Source of the DNA: Escherichia phage Zappy | DNA: 40,562 nt | Strand: one strand, 5' to 3' | Sequence record: OQ870568.1 | Shown here: positions 1-40,562 of the stretch, in pieces | Layout: each line of letters starts with the position of its first letter | Position numbering within the stretch: position 1 is the first letter of the stretch | Translations under genes and position numbers: made by a program | The notes under the pieces: model-generated | What the model was told of the DNA's origin: nothing | Database searches by the model: none | Seen by the model: only the letters and a program-made list of their open reading frames with translations

Positions 1-77
1 ACTACAGGCTCTGTTTTCTTCTCCCCATTAGAAGTAACAATAGGGTTGCTTCCGAGATATGCAGTTGTGAAACGGTT
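1..77. repeat. Terminal duplication, identical to 40486..40562 (overlap of a circularised contig)
   Basis: Direct comparison of the first 77 and last 77 bases: exact match. Confidence 0.9.
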
Positions 78-2489
78 ACTTGGTCCACCAAGCGCAATGA
101 CGTTATCGTGATAAGGCTTAACGTCAGCAGTCTGGAACAGATGCTCATTACCATTGTAAACTATTCGCTTTGAGTCGGTGTTATTTGCACCATAAAGCGT
201 AATCTGTGCGCCAGTCGTTGAACTAGTGCCTTCACCTCCGCAAAATATGGTGCGCTGCCCTGCCGGGTTATCAGTCGGTATAGATTTCCCGATAAACCCA
301 TATTCACCTTCCATTAAAACTTCAGAGCGAATGTTACTACTGGTGCTGGCTCTAATAGTCACATGACCTAAACCCAAATCCCCTGTAAATTCCATTGGCG
401 CAGGAACAGTGCGAATCCCATTCGTATCAAAAAACACGGGAACAGCTCTGTTAGGTACAGCACCATACCTGAAATCCCTAGAAACACGATTGTCTGGGCC
501 AATCTTCATTTTGTAGCAATACAAATCTGAGGGATGACCATCTGATTTGAATGGGTCCTTCGCTGAGTTATCTCCATAGGTCCATGGGTTAAAATGGTCC
601 TCTCCACCAAATATGTAGTAGATGTAATTATCCTTCACAACTACCGAACCAACACCTACACCTGAGTTAACTATTCCGCCCTGATAAATCTGGTCAGTGA
701 TGTTAACCCATTCAATATCATCTGCATTCCAATTGTTTACATTCAAGCGTGCATAGAAGGTGCGAGGATAAGATGCCTTGTAACGATCATCTGGTGCACC
801 TGCTTCCCATTCATTTTCTGCACGTTCCGAACCAAACATAATAAGGTCATCCCCTACTTTAGCAAAAGGCAATGTAGTATGATGAACATTATGTGGAAAT
901 CTCAGTGACTCCCAAGTCTGACCTATGTCTCTACTACGATGCAAAGAGCTACCTAGTCTATCCCCACGAGTGCCACGAGTGATAAGGTATAATACACCAT
1001 CATAGTACTTGATGCAAGGCTCTGCCGCATCTGGTTCATACTCAGATGGTATCTGACGACGAACATAATTAGATGGGCTATTGAAAGCATCAGGGAAGTA
1101 GAAAAGCCCAACTTCTCGTGGAGCTACATCACCTTGATGACAGCCCATAACAAAGCCATTGTTATCAATAGTAGCAAAGCTATGGACTTCAGTAACACGA
1201 GGGATTAAGCCAAGATCTGTTTTACGCCATGGAGACTTATGGAAGGAAGTACCCATATGCCAGTTCTTTCCAGCGTTATTCAAATCTGAAGTCTGCTGGT
1301 TTGGTGTAAGAACCGTGAAGTTGTCCTTATCTATTACGGTTGCAACAGTCATATTACCGGAGACACCTGTTACCGCAGAATTAGAGAAGTTAACAAAATC
1401 ACCCACGAATAGTCCGTGGTCTGGTACATGTATTGTTGCATATGGCTGATTTGCAGCTTTAGTGATACCACCAGTAAGATGCAGGCTACGAGACATGGGG
1501 CGATCCCACAATGCACAATTGGTTAATGCGTTCTTGGCTAAAGTACGTGTTTCAATCATGGCAAACAGACGGTTGCGACATACACCCATACTCATACAAT
1601 GATAGTTCACTGTAGGGTAATCTGGATGCAGATCAGTTAACCACTCTGGAGTAGACCATGTTTGACCATCATCACCAGACTTAACCCATGATACATGCAG
1701 ACGACTAACACCATGACGATCGCTACCCATGTAAGGTGCATATATCACATTATCATATACGAACGCTTTATCCTGAGGCCACGCATTGTAATAAGGGGTG
1801 TCCGTTATTTTGAACAACTCACCCTGAACAAATTCCTCAGAGACATAATAAAGAGGTTGTCCCGGAATGCGCTCATAAACGAAACGAGTGTTGATGAAGC
1901 GACTAATGTCAGGCAGGGATGTGACCTTATATGTCTTCCCATTGCCATTAATCTTTTGTCCAACCGGTGTGTCATTTAATACGCGCGTTAACGCTTCTGT
2001 ATCATCAGTGACACCGTCCCCTTTAGCATCCCAACCACGAAGATCAGGCCAGCGTGCCCAGAAACTCGCAACTATTCGGCGTGCTTCGTCCTCGCTATCC
2101 TTAGCGTTGCCAGCAGAGCTACCAGCAGCATCGGCATATTCCTTTGCTAAGTCAACCGTTTGGTCTCGACCTTCTTCTGCAATATGGATAGCCTGAAGCT
2201 CTGAATTGGTCAGGTCACTAGCTGTCAACACTGAGCCATTCCTGAAGTCTACCACTAAGTCAGTTCCAGTCTGACGGTGAATACGAACGATGTCGAAACC
2301 TGATTGGTCAGCCAACATCTCAATCATCGTTGGATTAAGGAATCGGTAATCTCGACCAACTTCCAGTACACGGTTCAGAGCAGGGTTAGAGCTATTCACC
2401 AGCGTAACAACAACAAACGTTCTGGCTAGGTAGTCGAACTCAATCCTGTACTGAGTGTTTCCTGACGGGAATTGTGTAATCGTGGACAT
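1..2489 (-). CDS. 17: Tail fibre/tailspike gp17, N-terminal ~830 codons; the ORF runs off the window start and continues in frame into 40053..40485
   Basis: ATG at 2489 with AAGGAGG 4 nt upstream. Hand translation [30 protein letters not shown] matches the T7 gp17 N-terminal adaptor domain. Downstream [11 protein letters not shown] (about 1995-2020) and Asp-box SGDDGQTW (about 1650-1676). No minus-strand stop reported before position 1; frame is continuous across the 77-bp duplicate. Confidence 0.85.
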
Positions 2490-18030: not shown

Positions 18031-18053
18031 AGTCCCTATAGTGATAGTTTAGT
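18031..18053 (-). promoter_or_regulatory. Phage RNAP promoter (phi6.5-like), ACTAAACTATCACTATAGGGACT
   Basis: Motif match; intergenic between exonuclease and the gp6.5-like gene. Confidence 0.75.
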
Positions 18054-18179
18054 GTTTCACCTATGGATGACTGTTGGATTGATAGGATATGACTATCGGT
18101 TAGACTCAGTGTTTAGGGCGGTTGTTCGACCCGAACCACTTGTACATGCAGTAAAGGGCCAGAAGTCCGGCCCAGTATA

Positions 18180-19082
18180 TTACATGGATGGTGTCCACAG
18201 GATGACCTCCTTGGACTTAGGGTCATAGTCAGAGGCTCGACAAATACGAGCGACCTGAGCTTGTACCAGAAGTTCCTCCTCGGTCATTCCAGCCTTAGCA
18301 GCCAGTGTAACCATGCAGTCCCACAGCGTCATGTCTTCACGCTTCGGATACTTCTTCCACTCAGTCTTAATCTGGCCTTTGTTCTTACCAGTCTTAAGCT
18401 CGCGGCTCTCCTGCACGAAGTAATACGGTTCGTCAAGGAATTCACGAGTGGTGTCCTCACCCATCCCAGGAATACCGCCGTAGCCATCTGTAGTGTCACC
18501 CTTGATGGTCTGCTCCATGTGCCAGTAGTCTGCCTCGGAAGTCGTATGACTCAGGATTTCACCAGTGGTTAACCAGAAGAACTCACAGTTCGGGATGGTC
18601 TTGAAGTCCTTATCGCAGGACACCAGCACCGCATGGTCGCATCCGACAATCTGAGGTCTGGTCCCGATGATACCCATACAATCATCACCCTCAAGCGTTG
18701 GACGCAGGAAGCTGTTGAACCGTGGGTCAGCCATCACTTCGGCTACGAACTTCTTGTAACCTACAGGCTTGCGAGAACCATTACGGTTAGCCTTATAGGT
18801 AGGTAAAACGTCCTTACGCCAGTTGTTATCATCAGTAAAGCACATCACAATCTTAGCGTCTTTCCACGCCTTGCGCTTCTTAACGATTTCAGCGATGGTG
18901 TTCTCAAGGATACGACGAGCCTTCTCGTGGTCGCAGATAAGGGTCCAGATGTCATCACCCCAGTCTGTCTCTTCCTCGGCAGCAGCCATAGAAGAGAATA
19001 CTAGGTAATCGCCATCAAGAACAAGAGCTATCTTCTTCTCAGCACCCATCGTCCAGACCTCCTGTAGCCATAGCGACTGCAT
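18180..19082 (-). CDS. 6: 5'-3' exonuclease gp6, 300 aa (alternative start ATG 19049 has a better RBS)
   Basis: ORF track; VLDGDYLVF, DKDFKTIPNCEF, WDCMVTLAAKAGMTEEEL resemble T7 gp6; same length as T7 gp6. Confidence 0.9.
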   Translation of the reverse strand: MQSLWLQEVWTMGAEKKIALVLDGDYLVFSSMAAAEEETDWGDDIWTLICDHEKARRILENTIAEIVKKRKAWKDAKIVMCFTDDNNWRKDVLPTYKANRNGSRKPVGYKKFVAEVMADPRFNSFLRPTLEGDDCMGIIGTRPQIVGCDHAVLVSCDKDFKTIPNCEFFWLTTGEILSHTTSEADYWHMEQTIKGDTTDGYGGIPGMGEDTTREFLDEPYYFVQESRELKTGKNKGQIKTEWKKYPKREDMTLWDCMVTLAAKAGMTEEELLVQAQVARICRASDYDPKSKEVILWTPSM

Positions 19083-19494
19083 ATGGCATCAAGGGAACTT
19101 TAGGCTCCTCAATACGTTCCAGAGTCACCTCAGGCTTCAGCCATTTGTTGGCGAACTCATGTGCCATGTCGTTGTCCTCTGAGTTGAGGTGGGACATCAG
19201 GTTCCAGAAGTTTGAAGACATCTCAGTCTCCTTCTCAACCCGGCGATATACTCCCCAGTCATTTACCTCTGAACCGTAGCTGTCATTCCACATACCACTT
19301 GCTACGATGGTCAGCCCGATGAACGGACGCCACTCATAGGCCTCAGCGGGAGACTCGGTGTATGACTCAACGTCCTTCTCGGTCAGGGTGTATGACCAAG
19401 ATGCGTAGAACTCAGCGTACTTGCGGTGCTCCTTCTCGCACTCACACTCACCTATGTCAAGGACCAGCTCTTTCAGACTTTCAGGTATCTTCAT
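19039..19494 (-). CDS. Hypothetical protein, 151 aa, at the gene 5.9 position
   Basis: ORF track, trimmed to the ATG at 19494 that overlaps the gp5.7 stop as ATGA. No recognisable similarity. Confidence 0.55.
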   Translation of the reverse strand: MKIPESLKELVLDIGECECEKEHRKYAEFYASWSYTLTEKDVESYTESPAEAYEWRPFIGLTIVASGMWNDSYGSEVNDWGVYRRVEKETEMSSNFWNLMSHLNSEDNDMAHEFANKWLKPEVTLERIEEPKVPLMPYAVAMATGGLDDGC

Positions 19495-19700
19495 ATACAG
19501 CCTCCATGTTGGTTCAGGAACTTGGTGCCAGCAGCGGTAATCTCCCACGCACCGTTGTTACGCCCATCCATAGACAGGCAGCTCAGATGTCCACGACTCG
19601 CAGCCTCAGCCACAAGTGCAGCGTTGTTGCGCACATAGTTGGACTGGAAGGTCTTCGGGCAGGACTTAAGGGCCGCTAGGACCCGTAAGTATTCACTCAT
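19491..19700 (-). CDS. 5.7: gp5.7-like protein, 69 aa
   Basis: ORF track; MSEYLRVLAALKSCPKTFQSNYVRNNAALVAEAASRGH closely resembles T7 gp5.7. Confidence 0.8.
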   Translation of the reverse strand: MSEYLRVLAALKSCPKTFQSNYVRNNAALVAEAASRGHLSCLSMDGRNNGAWEITAAGTKFLNQHGGCI

Positions 19701-19987
19701 TGCTTGAACTCCACTCGGAAGTCTCCGAAGCTGGGCTTGTCAGCATAATGACTCAGGTCTTCTTTCAGACCATCAACAATACCCTTCTTAAAGACAAGCT
19801 CTACCACAGCTTCCAGACCATCTGTAACGCCGACCTCGACCATCTTACGCTCGAAGCCAGTGATCTTCTCACCATTGAGAACCTTACGGCTCAACTCACA
19901 GAGAGACTTCTTGAAGTGCTCAACTTCTTCAGTAGACAGTACAGCGCCAAGCGAGAATGAAACTCGCATACGTTTAGTAATAGCCAT
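19697..19987 (-). CDS. gp5.5-like protein, 96 aa
   Basis: ORF track; immediately upstream of gp5.7 with overlapping stop/start, size close to T7 gp5.5 (99 aa). Confidence 0.55.
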   Translation of the reverse strand: MAITKRMRVSFSLGAVLSTEEVEHFKKSLCELSRKVLNGEKITGFERKMVEVGVTDGLEAVVELVFKKGIVDGLKEDLSHYADKPSFGDFRVEFKQ

Positions 19988-20150: not shown

Positions 20151-20456
20151 TTACTCCTGTTTGAATTGTCCGAACTTCTTGTCGGACGTTAAGTTTATAC
20201 ACATAGAGGTCTTAACTCTAACCTCTTCAGTGAATGGGATTAACCATAAGTTATCTTGGTACACAACCGCCAGAAGGTCGATGTCTCCCGGACTGTACGT
20301 GGGCTTCCCGCATCCTCCAAGCCTGACCTGTATACTGTTACAGTTCTTCAGCTTTGTTCCAGTCTTTACCTGAACTCTCGTTAAGGTCCCACCAATGTCC
20401 ACCACTAAGTCTGCTTTGGACTGGGTAAACGCTGGTAGGAAGACTTGGTGTCCCAT
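20151..20456 (-). CDS. Hypothetical protein, ~101 aa, start uncertain
   Basis: Downstream part of ORF 20151..20759 that does not overlap the DNA polymerase gene; first ATG after the polymerase stop; weak RBS. Confidence 0.3.
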   Translation of the reverse strand: MGHQVFLPAFTQSKADLVVDIGGTLTRVQVKTGTKLKNCNSIQVRLGGCGKPTYSPGDIDLLAVVYQDNLWLIPFTEEVRVKTSMCINLTSDKKFGQFKQE

Positions 20457-20520
20457 TGCTGTTAGTCTGTAGCTCGCATATAGCTCACTGGCTGCACCTG
20501 TAAAGTGCTGAGTCGTACCA

Positions 20521-22692
20521 TCAATGGCATTCTTTCCATGTTGGTCCAATCTTGCCCTCAGTATCAAGTACACACTTGAAGTTATAGAACTCACCCACCT
20601 TACGCATAGCAAGTTGAGCAATCTTGACGACTTCTTCGGCAATCTCCTGAGTACGGCAAGCAATCTGCAATTCGTCGTGAACCCAGGCCATGTACGCGAA
20701 GTCTCCCTCCCAGCCGTGAACATACCCTGACTCTTCAAGCATACGTTCAGTCTCGACAATCCAGTGCTTACAGACTACCGCACCATCGCCTTGAAGTAAG
20801 GCGTTCAGTGCTGAGTGCGGCGACCGGATGTGGATACGGCGACCGTCAAGTCCACGCAGCCAACGGCGTTTCCACTTAACGATGTTCTCTCCGTCCACCC
20901 ACTTAGAGTCTGAGATTAACGTACTACTCACAGCTTCCCTGAGGTCTTTGATGGCTGGTGTACCCTCAATGAATTTCTGCATGAGTGCTGAACCTTCCTT
21001 CTTCCCACCGCCTACTATCAGTCCAATCTTCGCGGCCCCTGCACCATATAGGAACGCATAGATGAACGTCTTAGCGTTGTTACGGAAAGCATCATGGTCG
21101 TGGCTGGACTTATCGCGTGGGACGTTAGGTGCTAACCCAGCGTTTACTGCGTTGGCCCAGTGGATGTCACCTTCGACCACAGTCTTCGCATAGGCACCAC
21201 CATCAAACGGAGCCGCTCGGTTCCCCAGACAACGAAGCTCAAGACCTGAAGCATCCACACCCACTTGAATCCAAGGGTCTGGCTTACCATCCGTCTTGTT
21301 CCAAGCTGCACCGAAAGCACCACGGCAAATCTCACCATACGGAGCACCGTTAGCAGGGACCTGAGCCATGTTTGGTGAACTATGAGTCGCACGTCCGGTT
21401 ACTGCCCCGCATGGGTTGATTGAACCGTGCATCCGTCCGTCTGGACCTACAAGTTTCAACCATGCGTTCTTACCTTCAGCCGCCTGACCGATGCGCTTCT
21501 GGACTACCAGATACTCACGAACTAGCTCTACGCAATCCTGAGCCTCTGCGTCTGGCAACTTAACGTGTTCTAACGTCTCGTCATCGACTACAGGTTTCCC
21601 GGTGTCAGTGAAGTCCACAGGCTCCCAGCCACGCTCCATCAGAACTTTCGCTAAGTGGTCTCCGCTTCCCGGATTAAACTCAACGTAAGTGATTGGCGTG
21701 AAGGGTGCTCCCTCCATCGTGTCTCGCGTATCGCGTTCACAGGGTTCAAGACCTAAGCGTTGAGCTTTGTTCTTCGGCTTCTTAAAGATGCCACCGACCT
21801 TAGGATACACGACTCTCGGATACTTCGGAAGGTCCTTGCCTGTCCGTGGGTGCTTGAAGAACTCCTTGCCTCCCTTTGGTGCGTACCAGCTGCCGAAAGT
21901 CGAACGCAGCTTGTCCAGCAGCTCTGCACGCTTGACGGTGAGTTCACGATATAAGCCTTCGACCATCTCGGTGTTCATCGGATAGCCGTTACGTTCCATC
22001 TTCGCACAGGTCCACGCAGCATCATGTTCCAGACGCAACGCATAAATCTGGTCGAAAGCGAACTGTTCAGACTGGAAGTAATACTTGTCAGTCAGGAACT
22101 TCTTGAACAACGCCAGTGTGACCACAACGTCTTGAACGTTATAGTCCAGCATCTCCTGAGACGGGAACAACCATTCGTCCCCAGCCTTATATTCGATACC
22201 TTCAGCCTTGCATTTGGCAACGTAATCGTGTTTGTACTCACCTTTCATCTCCCCGAGACGATAGCCCCAAGCCTCAAGAGACTGTCGTCCCATCATCTGA
22301 GGTGGCAGACGTCCAGATTTCACCGCTCCCATGTCTGAGAACTTAATGTTGGGATACATCAATCGCCCAAGCACCAAGGTATCAACAATTCGACCCTTAT
22401 TCACATTTAGGTTCTTACCGAAGTATTTCTTCTTCAGTATTTTCAAGGCTGGTATATCATAGTTCACACCATTATGCATAACCAGCATACCGTCAGTGGA
22501 TGTCATAATAGATTCTATGCGGTCTATATATTCTTTGAATCCACCTGTCAGCCCAGTCATAGGGGCAACACCATATTTCTCAGTAGCTTGAGTTCCAGCG
22601 TTAATGATAACACCACAGTGGAACTGTGACACAGTGTCTAGTAGACCGTCAGTCTCTATATCTGTGCCATAGAATGAGTTGAGATTAAACAT
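20521..22692 (-). CDS. 5: DNA polymerase gp5 (family A, with 3'-5' exonuclease), 723 aa
   Basis: ORF track; many T7 gp5-like stretches (NVQDVVVT, GSWYAPKGG, KYPRVVYPKVGGIFKKPKNKAQR, DASGLELRCL, FAYMAWVHDE). Confidence 0.95.
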   Translation of the reverse strand: MFNLNSFYGTDIETDGLLDTVSQFHCGVIINAGTQATEKYGVAPMTGLTGGFKEYIDRIESIMTSTDGMLVMHNGVNYDIPALKILKKKYFGKNLNVNKGRIVDTLVLGRLMYPNIKFSDMGAVKSGRLPPQMMGRQSLEAWGYRLGEMKGEYKHDYVAKCKAEGIEYKAGDEWLFPSQEMLDYNVQDVVVTLALFKKFLTDKYYFQSEQFAFDQIYALRLEHDAAWTCAKMERNGYPMNTEMVEGLYRELTVKRAELLDKLRSTFGSWYAPKGGKEFFKHPRTGKDLPKYPRVVYPKVGGIFKKPKNKAQRLGLEPCERDTRDTMEGAPFTPITYVEFNPGSGDHLAKVLMERGWEPVDFTDTGKPVVDDETLEHVKLPDAEAQDCVELVREYLVVQKRIGQAAEGKNAWLKLVGPDGRMHGSINPCGAVTGRATHSSPNMAQVPANGAPYGEICRGAFGAAWNKTDGKPDPWIQVGVDASGLELRCLGNRAAPFDGGAYAKTVVEGDIHWANAVNAGLAPNVPRDKSSHDHDAFRNNAKTFIYAFLYGAGAAKIGLIVGGGKKEGSALMQKFIEGTPAIKDLREAVSSTLISDSKWVDGENIVKWKRRWLRGLDGRRIHIRSPHSALNALLQGDGAVVCKHWIVETERMLEESGYVHGWEGDFAYMAWVHDELQIACRTQEIAEEVVKIAQLAMRKVGEFYNFKCVLDTEGKIGPTWKECH

Positions 22693-23360: not shown

Positions 23361-25064
<1,704 letters not shown>

Positions 25065-25301: not shown

Positions 25302-25324
25302 CATCCCTAAGGTGATAGTTTAGG
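25302..25324 (-). promoter_or_regulatory. Variant phage promoter, CCTAAACTATCACCTTAGGGATG (two mismatches at -4/-3)
   Basis: Motif match except -4 and -3; upstream of the small ORF and gp4. Confidence 0.45.
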
Positions 25325-25535
25325 CTTTGAAGAACTTAGCCAATTGGTCAGCTTTGGTATCAGCCTGACGAGCCTTCATGCCAGCTTCCAGTGACGCGAT
25401 GGTCAGCTTGTCAGCCAGAGCAGCAGCATCAGCCGCGCCGGTCGCAGTCTTCTTTTCTACCTTTCGTTCCAGTACCGCAGCACGACGATAACCACGCACC
25501 ACCAGACGACCAAGAAATTCGATAAGTTTAATCAT
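25320..25535 (-). CDS. Hypothetical protein, 71 aa
   Basis: ORF track; ATG with AGGAG upstream; between the lysozyme and primase genes. Confidence 0.5.
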   Translation of the reverse strand: MIKLIEFLGRLVVRGYRRAAVLERKVEKKTATGAADAAALADKLTIASLEAGMKARQADTKADQLAKFFKA

Positions 25536-26354: not shown

Positions 26355-26803
26355 TTAACTCCTTTCTTCTTGGGGATGAGTATACCTGAAGGCAGACGTA
26401 CAGTCGCCTCTTTCAGCCACTCAACCGGGATAAACTTGTCGGCATACTTATAGCCGTTCTTTTCGCACCAAGCGCCATACGTGGTCGGAGACCCTTTGTA
26501 TAACTTGGAGCGGGAACTTGAGAACACGAACCGAATGTCTAACTCAGGGTGCTGTTCTCGTACCAGAAGGTGCTTCTTACGGTCATCACTATCGAAGATA
26601 CCTTTGGTCTCCACGATGATACCGTTAGGAAGGATAAAGTCTGGTGTGTACTTGTGGTCGGAAGCCGGAATCACATAGTTGATATAATGGCTTTCGTACT
26701 CCGCTTTGACGCCGTTCTGCTCCAGCCACTGCTGGTTCTTGGCTTCAAGTCCAGAGCGGTAGGCACCCACAGAGTGCCCCCGTTTTGCAGACCATTGGGC
26801 CAT
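26351..26803 (-). CDS. 3: Endonuclease I (Holliday junction resolvase) gp3, 150 aa
   Basis: ORF track; YVIPASDHKYTPDFILPNGIIVETKG, DDRKKHLLVREQHPELDIRFVFSSS resemble T7 gp3. Confidence 0.9.
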   Translation of the reverse strand: MAQWSAKRGHSVGAYRSGLEAKNQQWLEQNGVKAEYESHYINYVIPASDHKYTPDFILPNGIIVETKGIFDSDDRKKHLLVREQHPELDIRFVFSSSRSKLYKGSPTTYGAWCEKNGYKYADKFIPVEWLKEATVRLPSGILIPKKKGVK

Positions 26804-27501
26804 TAGAAGTCGTAATCGCCACCAGAGTTGGAGTCGTCACCGCCTTCGGAACCATCGTCACCGAAGTCATCAGACCCGAAGTCACCATCGGTTGACGCTT
26901 TGTAGCCAGTACCGAGGTCTTCATCATCACCCCAGCCACCATCGCCACCAGCACCATCACCTTTCCACTCCTTCAGTTCTACCAGAAGGCAGGACTCAAG
27001 CTGGAGCTTAACGCTTGCACCAGTCGCAGCGTTCCACTTGAACGGCAGGACTTTAAACTTGACCTTCAGCTTTGAGCCAGCGCCAATATTCGGGACGTCA
27101 CGGATTAACTTAGCATCGGTGTCGTAGAACCGTAATACTATAGGCTCTGACTTACCATCCTTCAGGTAAGACGCGAAGCATTTAAACTTCAGGGTAACAG
27201 TACCGTCACCATTCTCAATCCACGGCATGTCGCCTTCTCGTGGTTCAATAGGCTTCTTGCCACGCTGAACCTGAGGCGGGTTCTTCTCGTGGTCTGTGAG
27301 TGCTTTCGCATACGCATCGTCGTGAATCTTCTGTAAGACATCAATCATCTTACGGACCTTCGGGTTGCTCAGGTCGAAAGTCAGGTTAACCTTATGCTCA
27401 CCACGCTCGTTAAACTTGGTGTCTGCTTTGTTCAGCCATGCGTAAGGCTCAACGATACCAGCTACCGGAGTGGTGAAAGTCTTCAGTTGCTCTTTAGCCA
27501 T
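26803..27501 (-). CDS. 2.5: Single-stranded DNA-binding protein gp2.5, 232 aa, acidic C-terminus ending DF
   Basis: ORF track; size, acidic C-terminal tail with terminal aromatic residue, position downstream of a phi2.5-like promoter. Confidence 0.85.
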   Translation of the reverse strand: MAKEQLKTFTTPVAGIVEPYAWLNKADTKFNERGEHKVNLTFDLSNPKVRKMIDVLQKIHDDAYAKALTDHEKNPPQVQRGKKPIEPREGDMPWIENGDGTVTLKFKCFASYLKDGKSEPIVLRFYDTDAKLIRDVPNIGAGSKLKVKFKVLPFKWNAATGASVKLQLESCLLVELKEWKGDGAGGDGGWGDDEDLGTGYKASTDGDFGSDDFGDDGSEGGDDSNSGGDYDF

Positions 27502-28618: not shown

Positions 28619-29080
28619 TTATAATAAATCTCTTAAGGCTACTGCCTCGGCTATGGTATCGAACGTACCGTATGACTTACGCTTTATCCGCAGTTGCCAG
28701 CGACCAGTTGATTTCTGGTATTGAACGTATTTCTCTCCAGATTGGCAGTGACTACGGGTTGGAACGTTAGTTAGGTTCACCGCCTGAGTCACACACCTGA
28801 GGTTCTCAATCCTGTTATCCGAAGGGTCCCGGTTGATATGGTCAATCACCATCCCTTCTGGTATAGGACCGTTGGTTAGTTCCCAAACTACTCGGTGGGC
28901 CAACTGCTGGCCCTTTGTCGTACTTAGAATCCAGTACCCATCCTTTCGTCTATAGCCAAGATGTCTACCGTTTAGGTTGGAGACCCCAGAGTGAGCCGCC
29001 CTGTCTGCTTTAAATCTTGACCGTAGGGTCGTCCTCAGTTCCACGCCACTGGTCGAACGAGGGATGCCGTAGTAAGCCAC
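28619..29080 (-). CDS. HNH homing endonuclease (HNH-A), 153 aa, GTG start
   Basis: ORF track; [39 protein letters not shown] is a typical HNH motif; GTG with GGAGGAG 7 nt upstream; paralogous to the ORF at 38505..38945. Confidence 0.8.
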   Translation of the reverse strand: MAYYGIPRSTSGVELRTTLRSRFKADRAAHSGVSNLNGRHLGYRRKDGYWILSTTKGQQLAHRVVWELTNGPIPEGMVIDHINRDPSDNRIENLRCVTQAVNLTNVPTRSHCQSGEKYVQYQKSTGRWQLRIKRKSYGTFDTIAEAVALRDLL

Positions 29081-34437: not shown

Positions 34438-34770
34438 TCACTCGCAGTCCTCTTCAGCCTCGTACCAGACCACCTCAGAGCTATTAGACACATCGTTATA
34501 CAGTGCCTCATAGATGCGAGCTTGTAGTATACGCGTTACGTCCTTGGTCTCAGGCATCAGCCCAGAGTCTTCGAACTCATTGTCAATACCATCAGCAGCC
34601 ATCACCGTGTAAATCTCGTGGTAATAATGCGGAACATTACCGTCTACGACCTCATGCAGCGCATCGCTGTAGTCATCGCCTTCAGCTATTTCGTCGCACT
34701 GAATACGCTCATTGAACAGCTCAACGGTTGCAGCCAGCAGCTCATAGTATGCGTTAGCGTTACGTTCCAT
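34438..34770 (-). CDS. ocr: Ocr (gp0.3) DNA-mimic anti-restriction protein, 110 aa
   Basis: ORF track; VPHYY, EFEDSGLMPETKDVTRILQARIYE and the acidic C-terminus resemble T7 Ocr; first gene after the early promoters. Confidence 0.85.
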   Translation of the reverse strand: MERNANAYYELLAATVELFNERIQCDEIAEGDDYSDALHEVVDGNVPHYYHEIYTVMAADGIDNEFEDSGLMPETKDVTRILQARIYEALYNDVSNSSEVVWYEAEEDCE

Positions 34771-35130: not shown

Positions 35131-35280
35131 TAGGTAATTTGAAATAATATTGATTAAGTTATCGTCGGCCCCATGGTGTAAGAGGATATAGTCTTTGACT
35201 AACATGTCTTTGACCTTAAGTCTATAGCTCTGTGTCTAGTAACTGTAGGTCTCTGACTGTAGGCGTTGGTGTCTTATGGT

Positions 35281-35373
35281 TGAGACTGTAGGTTAGTGAG
35301 ACTGTAGGTTAGTGAGACTGTAGGTTAGTGAGACTGTAGGTTAGTGAGACTGTAGGTTAGTGAGACTGTAGGT
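35281..35373. repeat. Tandem array of a 16-bp unit (tgagactgtaggttag), 5 perfect copies plus a partial one
   Basis: Read directly; the core CTGTAGG also recurs at 35243, 35256, 35651 and 35668. Confidence 0.9.
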
Positions 35374-35848
35374 GTAGGACGTAATGTTATACTATAACAC
35401 TATACAGATAGAGACTCAAAGAAGACCTATAGCCCCTACCTATCGTCCTTCCCTAAGCCATAGCCTAGACCTATCGTTGACCTGAAGTCTTTACCATCGG
35501 TCCAACCTTATGATAGACTGGCTGTGACTGCAAGGAGCAGTAACGGGTAGGGCCTTTGGTCTGGACTTAAAGAGGGCCTATGGGGAGACTTGAGGTTCTT
35601 GAACTGTGAGATGTGGTCTCAAACTTTTGGTCCAAAACTCATCGTCACTACTGTAGGCCACAGCCACTGTAGGCCAAGGACCGTAGGTCAGGCGACACTA
35701 GGATAGACCAATAAGTAGGATGACCCTAAGTGAGCTTCTCTTAAGGTGTTACCTAAAGTCCTTGACTGCAGTAGCTAAGGTCAGTAGAGTAGCGTCAGCT
35801 ATGAACTGACCTTAGGTCTTCCGCTCATGAATCGTTACCATGATTGCG

Positions 35849-36189: not shown

Positions 36190-36732
36190 TTACTTGTGGT
36201 TTCTCTTGGCCCTATCACGCTTAGGGGACCGTAGGGAAACAGCGTACTCCTTGTGCTTCTCTTCACGTAGTGCTGTCAGCCATGCTTCAAGTTCTATCAC
36301 AGAGTCGGAAGTCTTTGTGTAGCACTTACCCTTAAGTCGCAACTGAGCGCGATACTTTCCGGTAGGCTTGAAGAAGCTGATACCCTTAGGGAGACCATTA
36401 GTCTCGCCACCTCCTGAGTTCCATCTGTTCTCCAATGCTGTTACTAACCTGTAGTTATCCGGCCTGTCATCAAGCCTATCACCATTGATATGGTCAACCA
36501 TCATGCCAGAAGGTATTCGACCAACGGCTAGGCTGTAGATGATTCTGGCACGTCTATAGCGACTACCAAGGACCTTCACGATTGCGTACCCAGACGGATG
36601 GACTGAATGTCCCATGACCTCGCCTGGCTTCTTGTTAGAGCCTTTATAGGACTTCTTGCACACCAACTCACCATCTACATAAGCATAGTGATTAAAGAGG
36701 GCCACCCTGTCGATGGCCTTCTGTTTACTCAT
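36190..36732 (-). CDS. HNH homing endonuclease (HNH-B), 180 aa, immediately downstream of the large terminase gene
   Basis: ORF track; GRIPSGMMVDHINGDRLDDRPDNYRLVT HNH motif; RBS AGGAGG. Confidence 0.8.
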   Translation of the reverse strand: MSKQKAIDRVALFNHYAYVDGELVCKKSYKGSNKKPGEVMGHSVHPSGYAIVKVLGSRYRRARIIYSLAVGRIPSGMMVDHINGDRLDDRPDNYRLVTALENRWNSGGGETNGLPKGISFFKPTGKYRAQLRLKGKCYTKTSDSVIELEAWLTALREEKHKEYAVSLRSPKRDRAKRNHK

Positions 36733-36745
36733 ATTTCTCCTCCTA

Positions 36746-38512
36746 TTAGTGGAACGTAACGTATGACCCTAGTCCCAGCTCGTCGTCCGTATCGTGAGTT
36801 ACCCGGACCCCATTGTCCCAGAACTCAGTGTGGATGGACTCGAAGCCTTTCCGTGGGTTCTCCATCTGTTCCTCCAGCCACTCCTCAGTGACTTCACGTT
36901 CGCCTTTGTTGGCATCCTTAGCCATCGACTCAACGAAGAACTGTACACCGATAGCCAGCGCATCAAGTCGGTCATCGTGTGCCAAGGCTCCACGCTCACG
37001 AGAGATACGGGTCATCTGGTAGAAGAGAGAGTAGATAGGGTTACGAACACCATCCTTATCAGAGGCTGACTGGTAGTCTTGGACGATAGCAGCAGCGTTG
37101 ACGATAAGTCTGTGAGACCCCATGATAGGCTCCAGAACGTCACAGATTCGGAGTTCCTTCTGACCCTTACTCTTCACTTCAGTTACAGCAGCGGGATGAA
37201 TACGGGCAGCTACAGGCTTGAATAACTCAAGGTACATACCATCACCGAAGTTACCCTCAATGACGTATTCGTTTACCTTCCACTTACGACCAATCTTAGC
37301 CAAGGCTTCCAGCGTAGAGTCTTCATAACCACCGCGCATACCACCAACTTCCATAGCGAAGATGTAGCCGTTTAGCTGATATAGTACCGCATAACCAGTT
37401 TCATCCTTACCGCGACCACTAGGGTCAATGACCAGAATCTTCTGGGTGTATGAGCTGAAGGCAGAACCTACAGTCTGATACGTGTGGTACGAGTCACCCA
37501 TGAGGCCAACGTTAGGAACGTCCTCACGCTTGTTCTGAGGGTTAGGAAGCCATTGGTAGACCATTGGGCTGGACTCTGGGTCCAAGTCTGCTACGATAAG
37601 GTCACGGAGCTTCAGAGGGTACTTCTCGGCATCACTCAGGTTAGGGTTAAGCATGAACTGTAGAGCGAAGCCAGCTTTACCATAGGACAGCTCACGTTCC
37701 TTCAGGTCCGTATCATCGAATCGTACTTCATCGGTAGGACGCCAGTAGAAGGACTCAGGGTCCTCTTCAAGCTCTGCCTGAAGCATAGGAGCCAGACGGT
37801 CGCCGTAAGACTGCCAGTCCTTCTTATCGCGTGGGTAGCGAGCGGGCCAGATGGTAGTGGTATATCCACGACCTTCCAGCTCACGATACAAGGTCATCTC
37901 GTTCTGAGGAGTACCCAGATAGATGATTGTACCTCCCGGCTTCAGGATAGCGTCGAACTCTTTCACAAGCTCTGACAGACGGTCTCGTGCAGCCTGAGTC
38001 GCTGAGTTGTTCGGAACCTCCACGTCATCGGCAATCAGGATGTCAGCACGACTACCAGTCAACTGACCAGTGATACCAACGGACTTAACTGAAGGTGAGT
38101 GGTCTGGCTTGGCTGGTCCAACGTCGAAGCTGATAACCGCATCTCGCTGCCCCTGCTTAGGTTTAAGTTCCTGAAGCTGAGGCATGAGGTCGATGATTCG
38201 CTTGATGAAGATGGAGTTCGCATCGGCTCGTTCCTTTGAGGCCGACACAATCATGAACTTCAAGTCTGGGTTGTTCCATAGTTTCCAGACCACGAAACCA
38301 CAGGTCAGAAACGACTTGCCAATACCACGGAACGCCTGAAGGATGAAGCGGCGATTATCCCCAGCAGCCAGCTTCTTACACATATCTATCTGGCAGCGGG
38401 TTGGAACCGGAAGGCTAAGAGCTTTCCAGAGAACGAAGATGAAGAACACGAAGTCGTCCCTCATCCTTTGGGTCATTTCTGCCTGTCTTTCAACAGGTGT
38501 TTTCTTAGACAT
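36746..38512 (-). CDS. 19: Terminase large subunit (DNA maturase B) gp19, 588 aa
   Basis: ORF track; near-identical stretches to T7 gp19 ([74 protein letters not shown]). Confidence 0.95.
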
Positions 38513-38945
38513 AGAGTCCCTCCAGCATTAGGTCCCGGACAGAGATAGCCTCCTCTAAAGTAGGACGTGTTGTTCGAATACGGACTCCCTTACGCATGAC
38601 CTCGATAGCGTAGCCATTCTGATGGAACGATATGTTCTTAACTCCAGTCTTTGAGTCAGAATGTCCTGAGGTGTTGCAGGAGTTCTCGCTGGAAGTAACT
38701 AGCCGGAGGTTGTCCAGCCTGTTGTTAGTCCGGCAGCGGTCGATATGGTCAATCTCCATCCCTTCTGGTATAGGACCGTGGATTAGCTCCCAGACGACTC
38801 TATGGGCCAGCAGGAGTCCATGACGTCGAGTTCCTACCTGATAATACCCGTGGTTTCCCACACACCCCACATCCTTACCAGAACGCAGGGACTTCAGGCC
38901 AGACTTACTGGACTCATCATAGACATACGAATCACTGAGCATCAT
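38505..38945 (-). CDS. HNH homing endonuclease (HNH-C), 146 aa, immediately upstream of the large terminase gene
   Basis: ORF track; [25 protein letters not shown] nearly identical in its core to HNH-A; start overlaps the gp18.5 stop as ATGA, stop overlaps the gp19 start. Confidence 0.8.
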
Positions 38946-40052: not shown

Positions 40053-40562
40053 TTACTTCTGTTCAAGAGCAGAAAGTCTGGCTTCGATTCTTTCCAGTTT
40101 TCTTCTCTGATAGGCGGCTTCAGCAAAGAAAATTCCGTCAGGCCGAACACCCCACTCCTCACCCCCTTCATGGATAACCACCTCAGTGAATACAGGTTCT
40201 TCCGTAGTAGTGACATTACCCTCCTCGTCAGTGTGTTCAATGATTTCATTGTGCGAAAATACCGTATCGGTCATCCGTGGATACTTGTCATAGCACAGAA
40301 CGGCATAACGACAATTCGTACTGTTTTCATCCATCAGACCGTGTGCAATGAATACATCACGAATTTGCTGAGCAATAACCCCGAAGTGAATACGAGCATC
40401 ATTGCCTTTCAGCTGAACAGCATCTAACCATTGATACATGATGTAGTGAACGTCACCCCAGGCATCTAGGAAAGCATCATCAAAAACTACAGGCTCTGTT
40501 TTCTTCTCCCCATTAGAAGTAACAATAGGGTTGCTTCCGAGATATGCAGTTGTGAAACGGTT
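40053..40562 (-). CDS. 17: Tail fibre/tailspike gp17, C-terminal part (same gene as 1..2489; 40486..40562 duplicates 1..77)
   Basis: ORF track 40053..40439; frame stays open upstream to the window end and is the same frame as the ORF at the window start; ends in a predicted coiled-coil (RRKLERIEARLSALEQK). Confidence 0.8.
   Translation of the reverse strand, partial: NRFTTAYLGSNPIVTSNGEKKTEPVVFDDAFLDAWGDVHYIMYQWLDAVQLKGNDARIHFGVIAQQIRDVFIAHGLMDENSTNCRYAVLCYDKYPRMTDTVFSHNEIIEHTDEEGNVTTTEEPVFTEVVIHEGGEEWGVRPDGIFFAEAAYQRRKLERIEARLSALEQK
40486..40562. repeat. Terminal duplication, identical to 1..77
   Basis: Exact match to the window start. Confidence 0.9.

What the first reader, a model, noticed from the sequence alone, without database searches (positions are those of the whole stretch)
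19039..19494. Unrecognised 151-aa protein at the gene 5.9 position
Between gp5.7 and the exonuclease, T7 encodes the small RecBCD inhibitor gp5.9. Here the slot holds a 151-aa acidic protein with a Cys-x-Cys motif near its N-terminus (GECECEKEH) and no similarity I can recognise, coupled to gp5.7 by an ATGA overlap. It could be an alternative nuclease inhibitor or anti-defence factor.
Basis: inference. Interest (0 to 1): 0.5.

Follow-up and report, generated by a model that had tools for sequence, protein, structure and literature searches.

The report
Uncharacterised acidic protein beside phage exonuclease
The gene is real and encodes a very acidic, phage-only protein of unknown function that fills the slot where T7 keeps its RecBCD inhibitor and sits next to the phage 5'-3' exonuclease gene in unrelated phages, so it probably acts on DNA-end processing, but this is untested.

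Summary
A 151-aa ORF lies at 19039-19494 on the minus strand of a K1F-like (Kayfunavirus) genome. It has an ATGA overlap with gp5.7, its own GGAGG ribosome-binding site, and an 11-nt overlap with gene 6 (exonuclease). Its pI is 4.47 and net charge -16.

The Cys-x-Cys motif is a 2-residue EC duplication confined to the window's closest relatives, and the cysteine is not conserved.

Two context results are new:
- The slot between gp5.7 and gene 6 is hypervariable among near-identical Kayfunaviruses, with at least six alternative contents including empty.
- The family sits next to a gp6-type exonuclease in two deeply diverged phage groups with opposite gene order: upstream in T7-likes, downstream in about 90-kb environmental phages.

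Best reading (confidence about 0.35): a dispensable acidic binding protein of the recombination module that blocks a host DNA-end nuclease such as RecBCD. This would make it an analogue, not a homologue, of gp5.9 or Gam. A direct exonuclease partner is the main rival. Function is untested.

The parts
19039..19494 (-). CDS of the 151-aa acidic protein (PHROG 4382 family), stop codon included
   Evidence: ORF and translation; phrog_4382, E 6e-46; dN/dS 0.10-0.25
19501..19505 (-). GGAGG ribosome-binding site, 6 nt upstream of the ATG, inside the 3' end of gene 5.7
   Evidence: upstream sequence CATGGAGGCTGTAT-ATG
19491..19494 (-). ATGA overlap: stop of gene 5.7 and start of this gene
   Evidence: sequence; ORF ends
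19231..19494 (-). Conserved N-terminal module (residues 1-88). Motifs are E-H-R-K-Y (22-26) and G-M-W-x-D-S-Y-G-x-E (67-76). It is shared by every family member
   Evidence: alignments A1-A3; AF2: H5-14, E16-19, E28-36, H39-45, H49-58, E62-70, E74-88
19438..19449 (-). GAGTGT/GAGTGC duplication that creates the E-C-E-C (Cys-x-Cys) motif. It occurs only in the window's immediate clade
   Evidence: DNA; other homologues lack 2 residues; the Cys is not conserved; phiHAO1-1 shares it
19105..19230 (-). C-terminal module (residues 89-130): a helix pair with FWxLMSHLNSEDNDMAxEF, then a final strand. The shorter (~105-115 aa) family members have a different C-terminus here (VPExxIPAH)
   Evidence: alignments; H91-102, H109-118, E122-127; 9 of 30 members also hit phrog_6163 in this region
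19042..19104 (-). Low-confidence, probably disordered tail (residues 131-151, ...AMATGGLDDGC). It is Kayfunavirus-specific, and its last codons carry the gene 6 SD and ATG
   Evidence: pLDDT about 56; tails of homologues; overlap with the gene 6 start region
19047..19063 (-). Gene 6 translation start (AGGAGG 19063-19058, 8-nt spacer, ATG 19049-19047), embedded in the tail-coding region
   Evidence: sequence; same 11-nt overlap annotated in phiHAO1-1
18180..19049 (-). Gene 6 5'-3' exonuclease (FEN type, phrog_107), the gene this family is linked to across phage lineages
   Evidence: PF02739, phrog_107 E 1.9e-80; linkage
19491..19700 (-). Gene 5.7 homologue, the upstream translationally coupled neighbour
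   Evidence: phrog_1334, E 8.2e-39
25305..25331 (-). Nearest upstream phage-promoter-like repeat (reverse complement CTAAACTATCACCTTAGGG). No other copy lies before the one at 18034-18060, so the gene would be co-transcribed with genes 4, 5, 5.5, 5.7 and 6
   Evidence: repeat family D2/D4, at least 9 copies

Best explanation
SHOWN. The ORF is a genuine class II (DNA-metabolism operon) gene of a K1F-like coliphage. It encodes a member of a small, phage-only, uncharacterised family (PHROG 4382). The protein has a compact alpha/beta core of about 130 residues with no significant structural neighbour, followed by a disordered tail. It is strongly acidic, as is every family member examined. It is under purifying selection, yet it is dispensable: near-identical phages carry other genes or nothing in the same slot. 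The family is genetically tied to the phage FEN-type 5'-3' exonuclease.

INFERRED. It acts by binding rather than catalysis. It would be an acidic decoy or DNA-mimic-like inhibitor made together with the exonuclease. It would neutralise a host factor that attacks or binds the linear and concatemeric DNA ends generated by exonuclease-driven recombination and replication. RecBCD is the prime candidate. On this reading it is a non-homologous functional analogue of T7 gp5.9 and lambda Gam, kept where the host makes it useful and swapped out elsewhere.
For: - Position: it sits exactly where T7 has gp5.9.
- Missing alternative: tblastn finds no gp5.9 homologue in the window. None of 20 small early/middle ORFs hits a PHROG annotated as a RecBCD inhibitor or Gam.
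- Complementary distribution: gp5.9 homologues detectable from T7 gp5.9 (187 records) come from T7, T3 and other Escherichia, Yersinia and Salmonella phages; no Klebsiella- or Kayfunavirus-named record is among them. This family (170 records) is in Kayfunavirus, Klebsiella Przondovirus, Jarilovirus, Elunavirus and FelixO1-like phages. The full record lists were not intersected.
- Acidity: all 115 members have net charge -9 to -20 and pI at most 4.87. In this window only the Ocr DNA mimic is more acidic.
- Hypervariable, dispensable slot, typical of host-interaction genes. Alternatives are a 72-aa ORF (EcoDS1), a 110-aa acidic ORF (ST35), an HNH endonuclease (KE18), a 92-aa ORF (Citrobacter SH3-5), nothing (UKE1), or gp5.9. 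Decayed copies also exist.
- Linkage to the exonuclease in two deeply diverged groups with opposite gene order. Known RecBCD inhibitors are likewise encoded beside the phage's own exonuclease or recombinase genes: gam-bet-exo, abc2-erf, 5.9-6 (PMC9836394).
- Selection: dN/dS 0.10-0.25 against 0.02-0.07 for the exonuclease. It is constrained but evolves faster than the core enzyme.
Against: - There is no direct evidence of binding to RecBCD or to any host protein.
- There is no sequence or fold similarity to gp5.9, Gam, Abc2, Ocr or any solved DNA mimic or nuclease inhibitor.
- The complementary distribution with gp5.9 is confounded by phylogeny, because the two sets are different genera.
- Adjacency to the exonuclease fits a direct exonuclease partner equally well.
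- The family is not always adjacent. It is about 9 kb from the exonuclease in SUSP1, 3.6 kb in a Proteus-type 90-kb phage, and next to NAD-salvage genes in a 121-kb contig.
- Acidity is common among small phage early proteins.
- Conserved E-H-R-K, D, E and H residues could mark an active site.
- Hosts of the environmental phages are unknown, so it is unknown whether they have RecBCD.
Confidence: 0.35

Rival explanations
1. Direct partner of the phage's own 5'-3' exonuclease. The protein binds gp6-type FEN exonuclease (or bridges it to the replisome) and regulates its activity, timing or recruitment. Possible roles are restraining resection of phage DNA ends or coupling primer removal to the polymerase.
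For: - Immediate adjacency, usually with overlapping stop and start codons, in all 13 T7-like loci examined (family then exo; one has a 58-aa ORF between).
- Immediate adjacency in 24 of 32 IMG/VR loci of a different phage group with the order reversed (exo then family). Five more loci are separated only by inserted ORFs.
- Between the two groups the exonucleases are only about 20-28% identical, while the family N-module is 29-43% identical.
- Most Kayfunavirus tails end in DD[G/E/D]F. This resembles the C-termini of the window's gp2.5 (..DYDF) and gp4 (..DTDF). From my own knowledge of T7, those tails dock on the DNA polymerase.
Against: - Kayfunaviruses with a near-identical exonuclease manage without the gene or with unrelated genes in its place (flanks 90-95% nt identity). 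T7 itself has none. So it cannot be an obligatory subunit.
- It is not adjacent in FelixO1-like and some other phages.
- The tail is absent from other genera and is disordered.
- The tail's codons carry the gene 6 SD and ATG, so its conservation may be a nucleotide-level constraint.
- The window's tail ends in Cys, not Phe.
- Translational coupling is common between unrelated neighbouring phage genes.
Confidence: 0.25
2. Counter-defence or host take-over protein with a different target. Examples would be a defence system that senses phage FEN or recombination activity (retron-type guards), an SMC complex such as MukBEF or Wadjet, or another DNA-binding host protein.
For: - The same slot variability, dispensability and acidity as above.
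- gp5.9 itself has a second target, MukBEF (PMC7617805).
- Phage FEN exonuclease D15 is the escape locus for retron Ec78 (bioRxiv 10.1101/2023.03.15.532788). A protein encoded beside a FEN could therefore plausibly mask such sensing.
- In one 121-kb contig the gene lies next to PRPP-synthetase and NAPRTase genes.
Against: This is entirely circumstantial. There is no match to any PADLOC model or known anti-defence family: the best PADLOC hit is E 0.016 at 12 bits. No literature trace was found, and the sequence motifs were absent from the 39 supplementary text files of the one phage accessory-gene screen searched.
Confidence: 0.2
3. A small enzyme, such as a phosphoesterase or nucleotide-modifying activity, that uses the conserved polar residues E22, H23, R24, K25, D71 and E76 plus a His/Glu pair in either type of C-terminal module.
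For: The conserved polar cluster recurs in all members. Both alternative C-terminal modules keep a His and acidic residues (SHLNxEDN versus PExxIPAH). The genes lie in nucleotide-metabolism regions.
Confidence: 0.08
4. A metal-binding (Cys-x-Cys) or redox protein, as the motif flagged by the first reader might suggest.
For: The window's sequence contains C17-x-C19 and a C-terminal Cys151.
Against: The second Cys arises from a 6-nt duplication found only in the closest relatives. The remaining Cys is F, L or P in other members. The terminal Cys is Phe in most homologues. No column with a conserved Cys exists in the 30-sequence alignment.
Confidence: 0.02

Closest known systems
T7 gp5.9 (RecBCD and MukBEF inhibitor, DNA mimic)
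   Same: Same genomic slot, between gene 5.7 and gene 6, overlapping the gene 6 start. Acidic and non-essential. Encoded in the same class II operon.
   Different: No homology (hhalign probability 0.1%). It is 151 aa with an alpha/beta core, whereas gp5.9 is a 52-aa parallel coiled-coil dimer. pI is 4.47 against 4.0. Binding to RecBCD is untested.
Lambda Gam and P22 Abc2 (RecBCD inhibitors or modulators encoded beside phage exo/recombinase genes)
   Same: A small accessory protein encoded next to the phage's own recombination exonuclease. Gam is acidic. The logic of protecting linear DNA while the phage uses its own nuclease is the same (PMC9836394).
   Different: No sequence or fold similarity. 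The partner exonuclease here is FEN-type (phrog_107), not lambda Exo or RecE type.
PHROG 4382 (phage proteins of unknown function)
   Same: The window protein is a full-length member: E 6e-46 over residues 1-132, and all 30 aligned relatives hit the same PHROG.
   Different: The family has no assigned function, so membership names it but does not explain it. This member has a clade-specific EC insertion and a 21-residue tail.
Ocr / gp0.3-type DNA mimics
   Same: Strongly acidic phage protein. The window's own Ocr homologue (34438-34770) is the only ORF with a higher negative charge density.
   Different: No homology. Ocr is an early (class I) gene at the genome's left end and targets type I R-M and BREX. 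No structural match.
RelE/ParE/BrnT-like toxin fold

Membership tests
T7 gp5.9-like RecBCD inhibitor | Detectable sequence homology to gp5.9 | tested here: not met
   hhalign of the family profile against gp5.9: probability 0.1%. tblastn of gp5.9 against the window: best E 3.2. No PHROG gp5.9 hit.
T7 gp5.9-like RecBCD inhibitor | A protein of about 52-60 aa forming a parallel coiled-coil dimer | tested here: not met
   151 aa. The AF2 model is alpha/beta with five strands. The gp5.9 architecture is taken from PMC9836394.
T7 gp5.9-like RecBCD inhibitor | Position between gene 5.7 and gene 6 | tested here: met
T7 gp5.9-like RecBCD inhibitor | Binds RecBCD and blocks DNA-end binding | not testable with these tools
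   Needs pull-down, nuclease assays or complex prediction.
PHROG 4382 | Significant full-length match to the family profile | tested here: met
   E 6e-46, residues 1-132 on profile positions 6-129 of 130. All 30 aligned relatives also match.
DNA-mimic proteins (functional class) | High net negative charge | tested here: met
   Net -16, pI 4.47. All 115 family members are at -9 to -20.
DNA-mimic proteins (functional class) | Surface carboxylates arranged like a DNA phosphate backbone, and competition with DNA for a DNA-binding protein | not testable with these tools
Lambda Gam / P22 Abc2 | Sequence or fold homology | tested here: not met
RelE/ParE/BrnT toxin superfamily | Significant structural match and a basic RNA- or ribosome-binding surface | tested here: not met
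Cys-based metal-binding motif (CxC, Zn ribbon) | Conserved cysteines across homologues | tested here: not met
   There is no conserved Cys column. The CxC arises from a clade-specific duplication.
Aminoglycoside nucleotidyltransferase ANT(4') | Score above the curated cut-off | tested here: not met
   15.1 bits against a cut-off of 500. PDB phmmer E 0.66.

The most novel reading that the evidence does not exclude
The family is a dedicated, new-fold partner of FEN-type phage exonucleases. It would be co-translated with them in phages as different as T7-like podoviruses and about 90-kb environmental phages, and it would gate or target 5'-end resection. For example, it could protect the phage's own ends, or hand the exonuclease to the replisome through a gp2.5/gp4-like acidic tail ending in an aromatic residue. 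That would be a previously unrecognised regulatory layer of phage recombination-dependent replication.
Probability: 0.2. Interest if true: 0.65.

Novelty: new variant of a known kind. Interest (0 to 1): 0.45.

Why it matters
T7 gp5.9 is a textbook RecBCD inhibitor, now also known to inhibit MukBEF. Yet whole genera of T7-like phages, including therapeutic K1F-like and Klebsiella KP32-like phages, lack it, and what fills its place there has not been studied.

This family is the commonest occupant of the slot in those genera. It has a fold with no solved relative, and it is linked to the phage exonuclease across very distant phages.

- If it inhibits RecBCD or another DNA-end factor, it adds a structurally new inhibitor class and a potential trigger for guard-type defences.
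- If it instead partners the exonuclease, it reveals an unknown regulator of phage recombination.

Either outcome can be tested directly with simple genetics.

Tried and rejected
- **Family libraries gave no informative hit.** Pfam, NCBIfam and PADLOC scans of the protein, and Pfam over 30 relatives, found nothing useful.
- **PDB sequence searches were negative.** With the single sequence the best E was 0.66; with the family profile it was 0.52.
- **Homology to gp5.9 and to the acidic 110-aa slot protein of phage ST35 was rejected** by hhalign. The local MWNDSYG/VWNDIQG resemblance to gp5.9 is 7 residues long and not significant.
- **The CxC metal-site idea was rejected** by the alignments.
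- **The C-terminal DDxF tail as a polymerase-docking motif was considered** but kept only as a side idea. The tail is disordered and genus-specific, it overlaps the gene 6 SD and ATG, and it ends in Cys in this window.
- **phrog_1985 could not be identified further.** This 'HNH endonuclease' neighbour in the 90-kb phages has no Pfam or PDB match.
- **Literature searches found nothing.** I searched for the PHROG id and for sequence motifs, including the supplements of the Silas et al. accessory-gene screen.
- **Two searches were unproductive.** The search for related loci with the full 30-sequence alignment failed for lack of a conserved stretch. The long-type alignment recovered only 6 T7-like contigs, most matching cultured phages in length.
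- **P0058, an apparent stand-alone C-module, is probably a truncated gene call.** It starts 27 nt from the end of a short contig.
Full report
**Observation**

The window is a K1F-like (Kayfunavirus) coliphage genome read on the reverse strand. The 2.3-kb region around the finding is 91-98% identical to many Escherichia, Salmonella and Enterobacter Kayfunavirus records.

The ORF runs from the ATG at 19494 to the TGA at 19041-19039 on the minus strand and encodes 151 aa.

- Upstream lie gp5.5 (PF11247; phrog_1452) and gp5.7 (phrog_1334).
- Downstream is the gene 6 5'-3' exonuclease (PF02739; phrog_107, E 1.9e-80).
- T7 has 5.5, 5.7, 5.9, 6 in the same order.
- The gp5.7 stop and the ATG form ATGA.
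- A GGAGG lies 6 nt upstream of the ATG.
- The ORF's last 11 nt overlap gene 6, whose AGGAGG and ATG are embedded in the tail codons.
- The protein has pI 4.47 and net charge -16.
- Copies of the phage-promoter-like repeat lie at about 25305-25331 and 18034-18060, with none between them. The gene would therefore be co-transcribed with the helicase, polymerase and exonuclease genes.
- dN/dS against five Kayfunavirus orthologues is 0.10-0.25. For comparison, the exonuclease is 0.02-0.07 and gp5.7 is 0.07-0.21.

**The Cys-x-Cys motif**

Other Kayfunavirus homologues read G--ECEKEH. The window and its closest relatives, such as phiHAO1-1, carry a GAGTGT/GAGTGC duplication that adds Glu-Cys. In more distant members the remaining Cys is Phe, Leu or Pro. 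The 30-sequence alignment has no conserved Cys column. The motif carries no functional weight.

**What the protein is**

It has no Pfam family and only sub-threshold NCBIfam and PADLOC hits. It is a full-length member of PHROG 4382, annotated 'unknown function' (E 6e-46).

An exhaustive profile search of 1.84 billion cluster representatives found only 28 representatives at E of 0.001 or better. A profile search of the 5.8-billion-sequence collection gave 101 proteins. None had an informative name or a Pfam domain, and those on long contigs lie on contigs of typical phage genome size (about 40-95 kb).

In cultured phages, tblastn finds the family in 170 records:
- Kayfunavirus (80-99% identity)
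- Klebsiella Przondovirus (about 43%)
- Jarilovirus, Elunavirus and a Providencia T7-like phage
- about 90-kb FelixO1-like myoviruses (28-33%)

All are annotated as hypothetical proteins, apart from a few evidently spurious labels.

The family has a conserved N-terminal module, residues 1-88. Its motifs are E-H-R-K-Y and G-x-W-x-D-x-x-G-x-E. There are two alternative C-termini:
- a helix pair with SHLNxEDN, found in this window, other T7-likes and the FelixO1-likes;
- a short VPExxIPAH segment, found in members of about 105-115 aa from environmental phages.

Every one of 115 members examined is strongly acidic.

**Structure**

AlphaFold2 with the 30-sequence alignment gave mean pLDDT 84.5 and pTM 0.67. 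Most of the core, residues 1-130, scores above 90, and the tail scores about 56. The predicted elements are:
- helix 5-14
- strands 16-19 and 28-36
- helices 39-45 and 49-58
- a long hairpin, 62-70 and 74-88
- helices 91-102 and 109-118
- strand 122-127

No fold search gave a significant neighbour:
- Foldseek against PDB: nothing below E 0.74.
- BFVD: only uncharacterised family members.
- PDB sequence and profile searches: negative.

The fold therefore has no solved relative detectable with these tools.

**Relation to gp5.9**

There is no homology. hhalign probability is 0.1%. tblastn finds no gp5.9 homologue anywhere in the window. None of 20 small early or middle ORFs matches a PHROG annotated as a RecBCD inhibitor or Gam, while the Ocr, gp1.2 and gp2 homologues are recognised.

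gp5.9 homologues detectable from T7 gp5.9 occur in 187 records of T7, T3 and other Escherichia, Yersinia and Salmonella phages. No Klebsiella- or Kayfunavirus-named records are among them. The PHROG 4382 family occupies the slot in other genera. The two distributions look complementary, but the full record lists were not intersected, and the pattern is confounded by phylogeny.

**The slot is hypervariable**

Kayfunaviruses whose gp5.7 and gene 6 flanks are 90-95% identical to the window carry different contents in the slot:
- this gene (about 54 records)
- an unrelated 72-aa ORF (EcoDS1; phrog_2251)
- an unrelated, very acidic 110-aa ORF (ST35; phrog_18166)
- a 127-aa HNH endonuclease (KE18)
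- a 92-aa K11-like ORF (Citrobacter SH3-5; PMC4925675)
- nothing at all (vB_EcoP-101118UKE1)

Decayed copies also exist: internal deletions in P0033, P0038 and P0052, and a remnant in phage LS2. The gene is therefore dispensable for the phage core functions and turns over quickly. That is typical of host-interaction genes.

**Linkage to the exonuclease (new result)**

In all 13 T7-like loci examined, the family gene lies directly upstream of gene 6, usually with overlapping stop and start codons. These loci cover five genera plus metagenomic contigs. Klebsiella IME321 has a 58-aa ORF in between.

In a different phage group, the gene lies downstream of a phrog_107 exonuclease of 315-346 aa. This group comprises environmental contigs of about 85-105 kb plus some shorter contigs (4.5-52 kb).

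I scanned 32 IMG/VR loci with HMMs built here:
- In 24 loci the exonuclease ends within 20 nt of, or overlaps, the family start.
- In 5 loci one or two ORFs, mostly HNH-like, are inserted between them.
- In 3 loci no exonuclease is detected. Two of these are a truncated T7-like arrangement: primase-helicase, polymerase, family, then the contig ends.
- A phrog_1985 protein, annotated 'HNH endonuclease' with no Pfam or PDB match, neighbours the family gene in 28 of the 29 loci that have an exonuclease.

The window's exonuclease is only about 20-28% identical to those of the second group. The family N-module is 29-43% identical.

Adjacency is not universal. In SUSP1 (FelixO1-like) the exonuclease is about 9 kb upstream. 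In a Proteus-type 90-kb phage it is 3.6 kb downstream. In a 121-kb contig the gene follows PRPP-synthetase and NAPRTase genes.

So there are two independent lineages with tight adjacency in opposite orders, and in the other lineages the gene lies among replication or nucleotide/NAD-metabolism genes. This is moderate guilt-by-association evidence for a functional tie to exonuclease-driven DNA processing.

**Mechanism**

The context fits two readings.

(a) A host-nuclease inhibitor kept beside the phage's own exonuclease. Lambda gam sits beside bet and exo, P22 abc2 beside erf, and T7 5.9 beside 6 (PMC9836394). Supporting points are the conserved acidity, dispensability, slot turnover, the lack of a recognised RecBCD inhibitor among the ORFs scanned, and faster evolution than the exonuclease.

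(b) A direct partner or regulator of the exonuclease. The reversed-order adjacency supports it. So, weakly, does the DD[G/E/D]F tail of most Kayfunavirus homologues, which resembles the C-termini of the window's gp2.5 (..DYDF) and gp4 (..DTDF).

Against (b):
- Near-identical exonucleases function without the gene.
- The tail is disordered and genus-specific.
- The tail ends in Cys here.
- Its codons carry the gene 6 SD and ATG, which can explain its conservation.

I rank (a) first at about 0.35 and (b) second at about 0.25. A different counter-defence or host target follows at about 0.2. Such a target is plausible because gp5.9 also hits MukBEF and phage FEN D15 is the retron Ec78 escape locus. 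A small enzyme comes at about 0.08. All functional steps are inferred. None is shown.

**Novelty and verdict**

The family is already catalogued as a PHROG but is uncharacterised. I found no literature trace of it. What is new here:
- no solved-structure neighbour could be detected for its fold;
- the CxC motif is demoted to a clade-specific duplication;
- the hypervariability of the slot is documented;
- the family is linked to the exonuclease across distant phages.

It is best filed as a new variant of a known kind, namely the small acidic phage accessory proteins of recombination modules. Its function is open but readily testable. Interest is moderate (0.45).

Noticed in passing
window 1-77 and 40486-40562: The first and last 77 nt of the window are identical. 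This looks like an assembly overlap of a circularly closed contig, so the unique length would be 40485 nt. The window is permuted relative to the T7 map and reverse-complemented.
   Followed up: no
window 35265-35389: A tandem array of a 16-nt unit (TGAGACTGTAGGTTAG), at least 7 copies. It lies in a non-coding stretch near the Ocr-like gene and the early region.
   Followed up: no
window 19697-19987 (-): The gp5.5 (H-NS inhibitor) allele is only about 37-45% identical in protein to the gp5.5 of phages whose flanking gp5.7 and exonuclease are 95-99% identical. This is a mosaic replacement right next to the finding, and it explains the two-piece megablast matches.
   Followed up: partly
window ~20154-20540 (-): An extra ORF (phrog_5018, unknown function, E 3e-29) lies between the DNA polymerase stop (20521) and the 52-aa phrog_20928 gene. 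In phiHAO1-1 the polymerase is followed directly by the 52-aa gene. This is another variable slot. The ORF's start codon is unclear.
   Followed up: partly
window 34438-34770 (-): An Ocr-like anti-restriction DNA mimic (phrog_2568, E 6.7e-52). It has net charge -23 over 110 aa and is the only ORF more acidic than the finding.
   Followed up: yes
loci L012-L044 (IMG/VR, Logan, JGI and ENA contigs): There is a recurrent three-gene block: FEN-type exonuclease, PHROG 4382 member, phrog_1985 protein. The last is annotated HNH endonuclease but has no Pfam or PDB match. It is present in 28 of 29 IMG/VR loci that have the exonuclease. It looks like a resident gene of the block rather than a sporadic homing endonuclease.
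   Followed up: partly
window 19042-19104 (-), with 26803-27501 (-) and 23361-25061 (-): Most Kayfunavirus homologues end in ...GGLDD[G/E/D]F. This resembles the acidic C-termini ending in Phe of the window's gp2.5 (..GGDYDF) and gp4 (..WEDTDF). The window's own copy ends ..DDGC. The tail codons double as the gene 6 SD and ATG.
   Followed up: partly
protein P0111 (metagenomic, 155 aa): One family member carries an N-terminal CPDC...CVAC zinc-ribbon-like extension fused to the conserved module.
   Followed up: no
records MT350292.1 and OR786095.1: Records named 'Enterococcus phage EFA-1' and 'Staphylococcus phage MBBL139' are 91-94% identical to this enterobacterial Kayfunavirus region. They are probably mislabelled hosts or contaminants.
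   Followed up: no
window 28787-28902, 36485-36531, 38694-38809: Three related stretches (72-91% identity) lie inside ORFs 28619-29080, 36190-36732 and 38505-38945. The first of these is an HNH endonuclease (phrog_99, E 1e-41). This suggests several paralogous HNH homing-endonuclease genes in the genome.
   Followed up: no
locus L011 (Pantoea phage vB_PagP-SK1, MN450150.1): The record annotates a minus-strand CDS (1795-2073) where the plus strand encodes a clear PHROG 4382 member (1783-2160, E 1.9e-38) abutting the exonuclease. This is a likely mis-annotation.
   Followed up: partly
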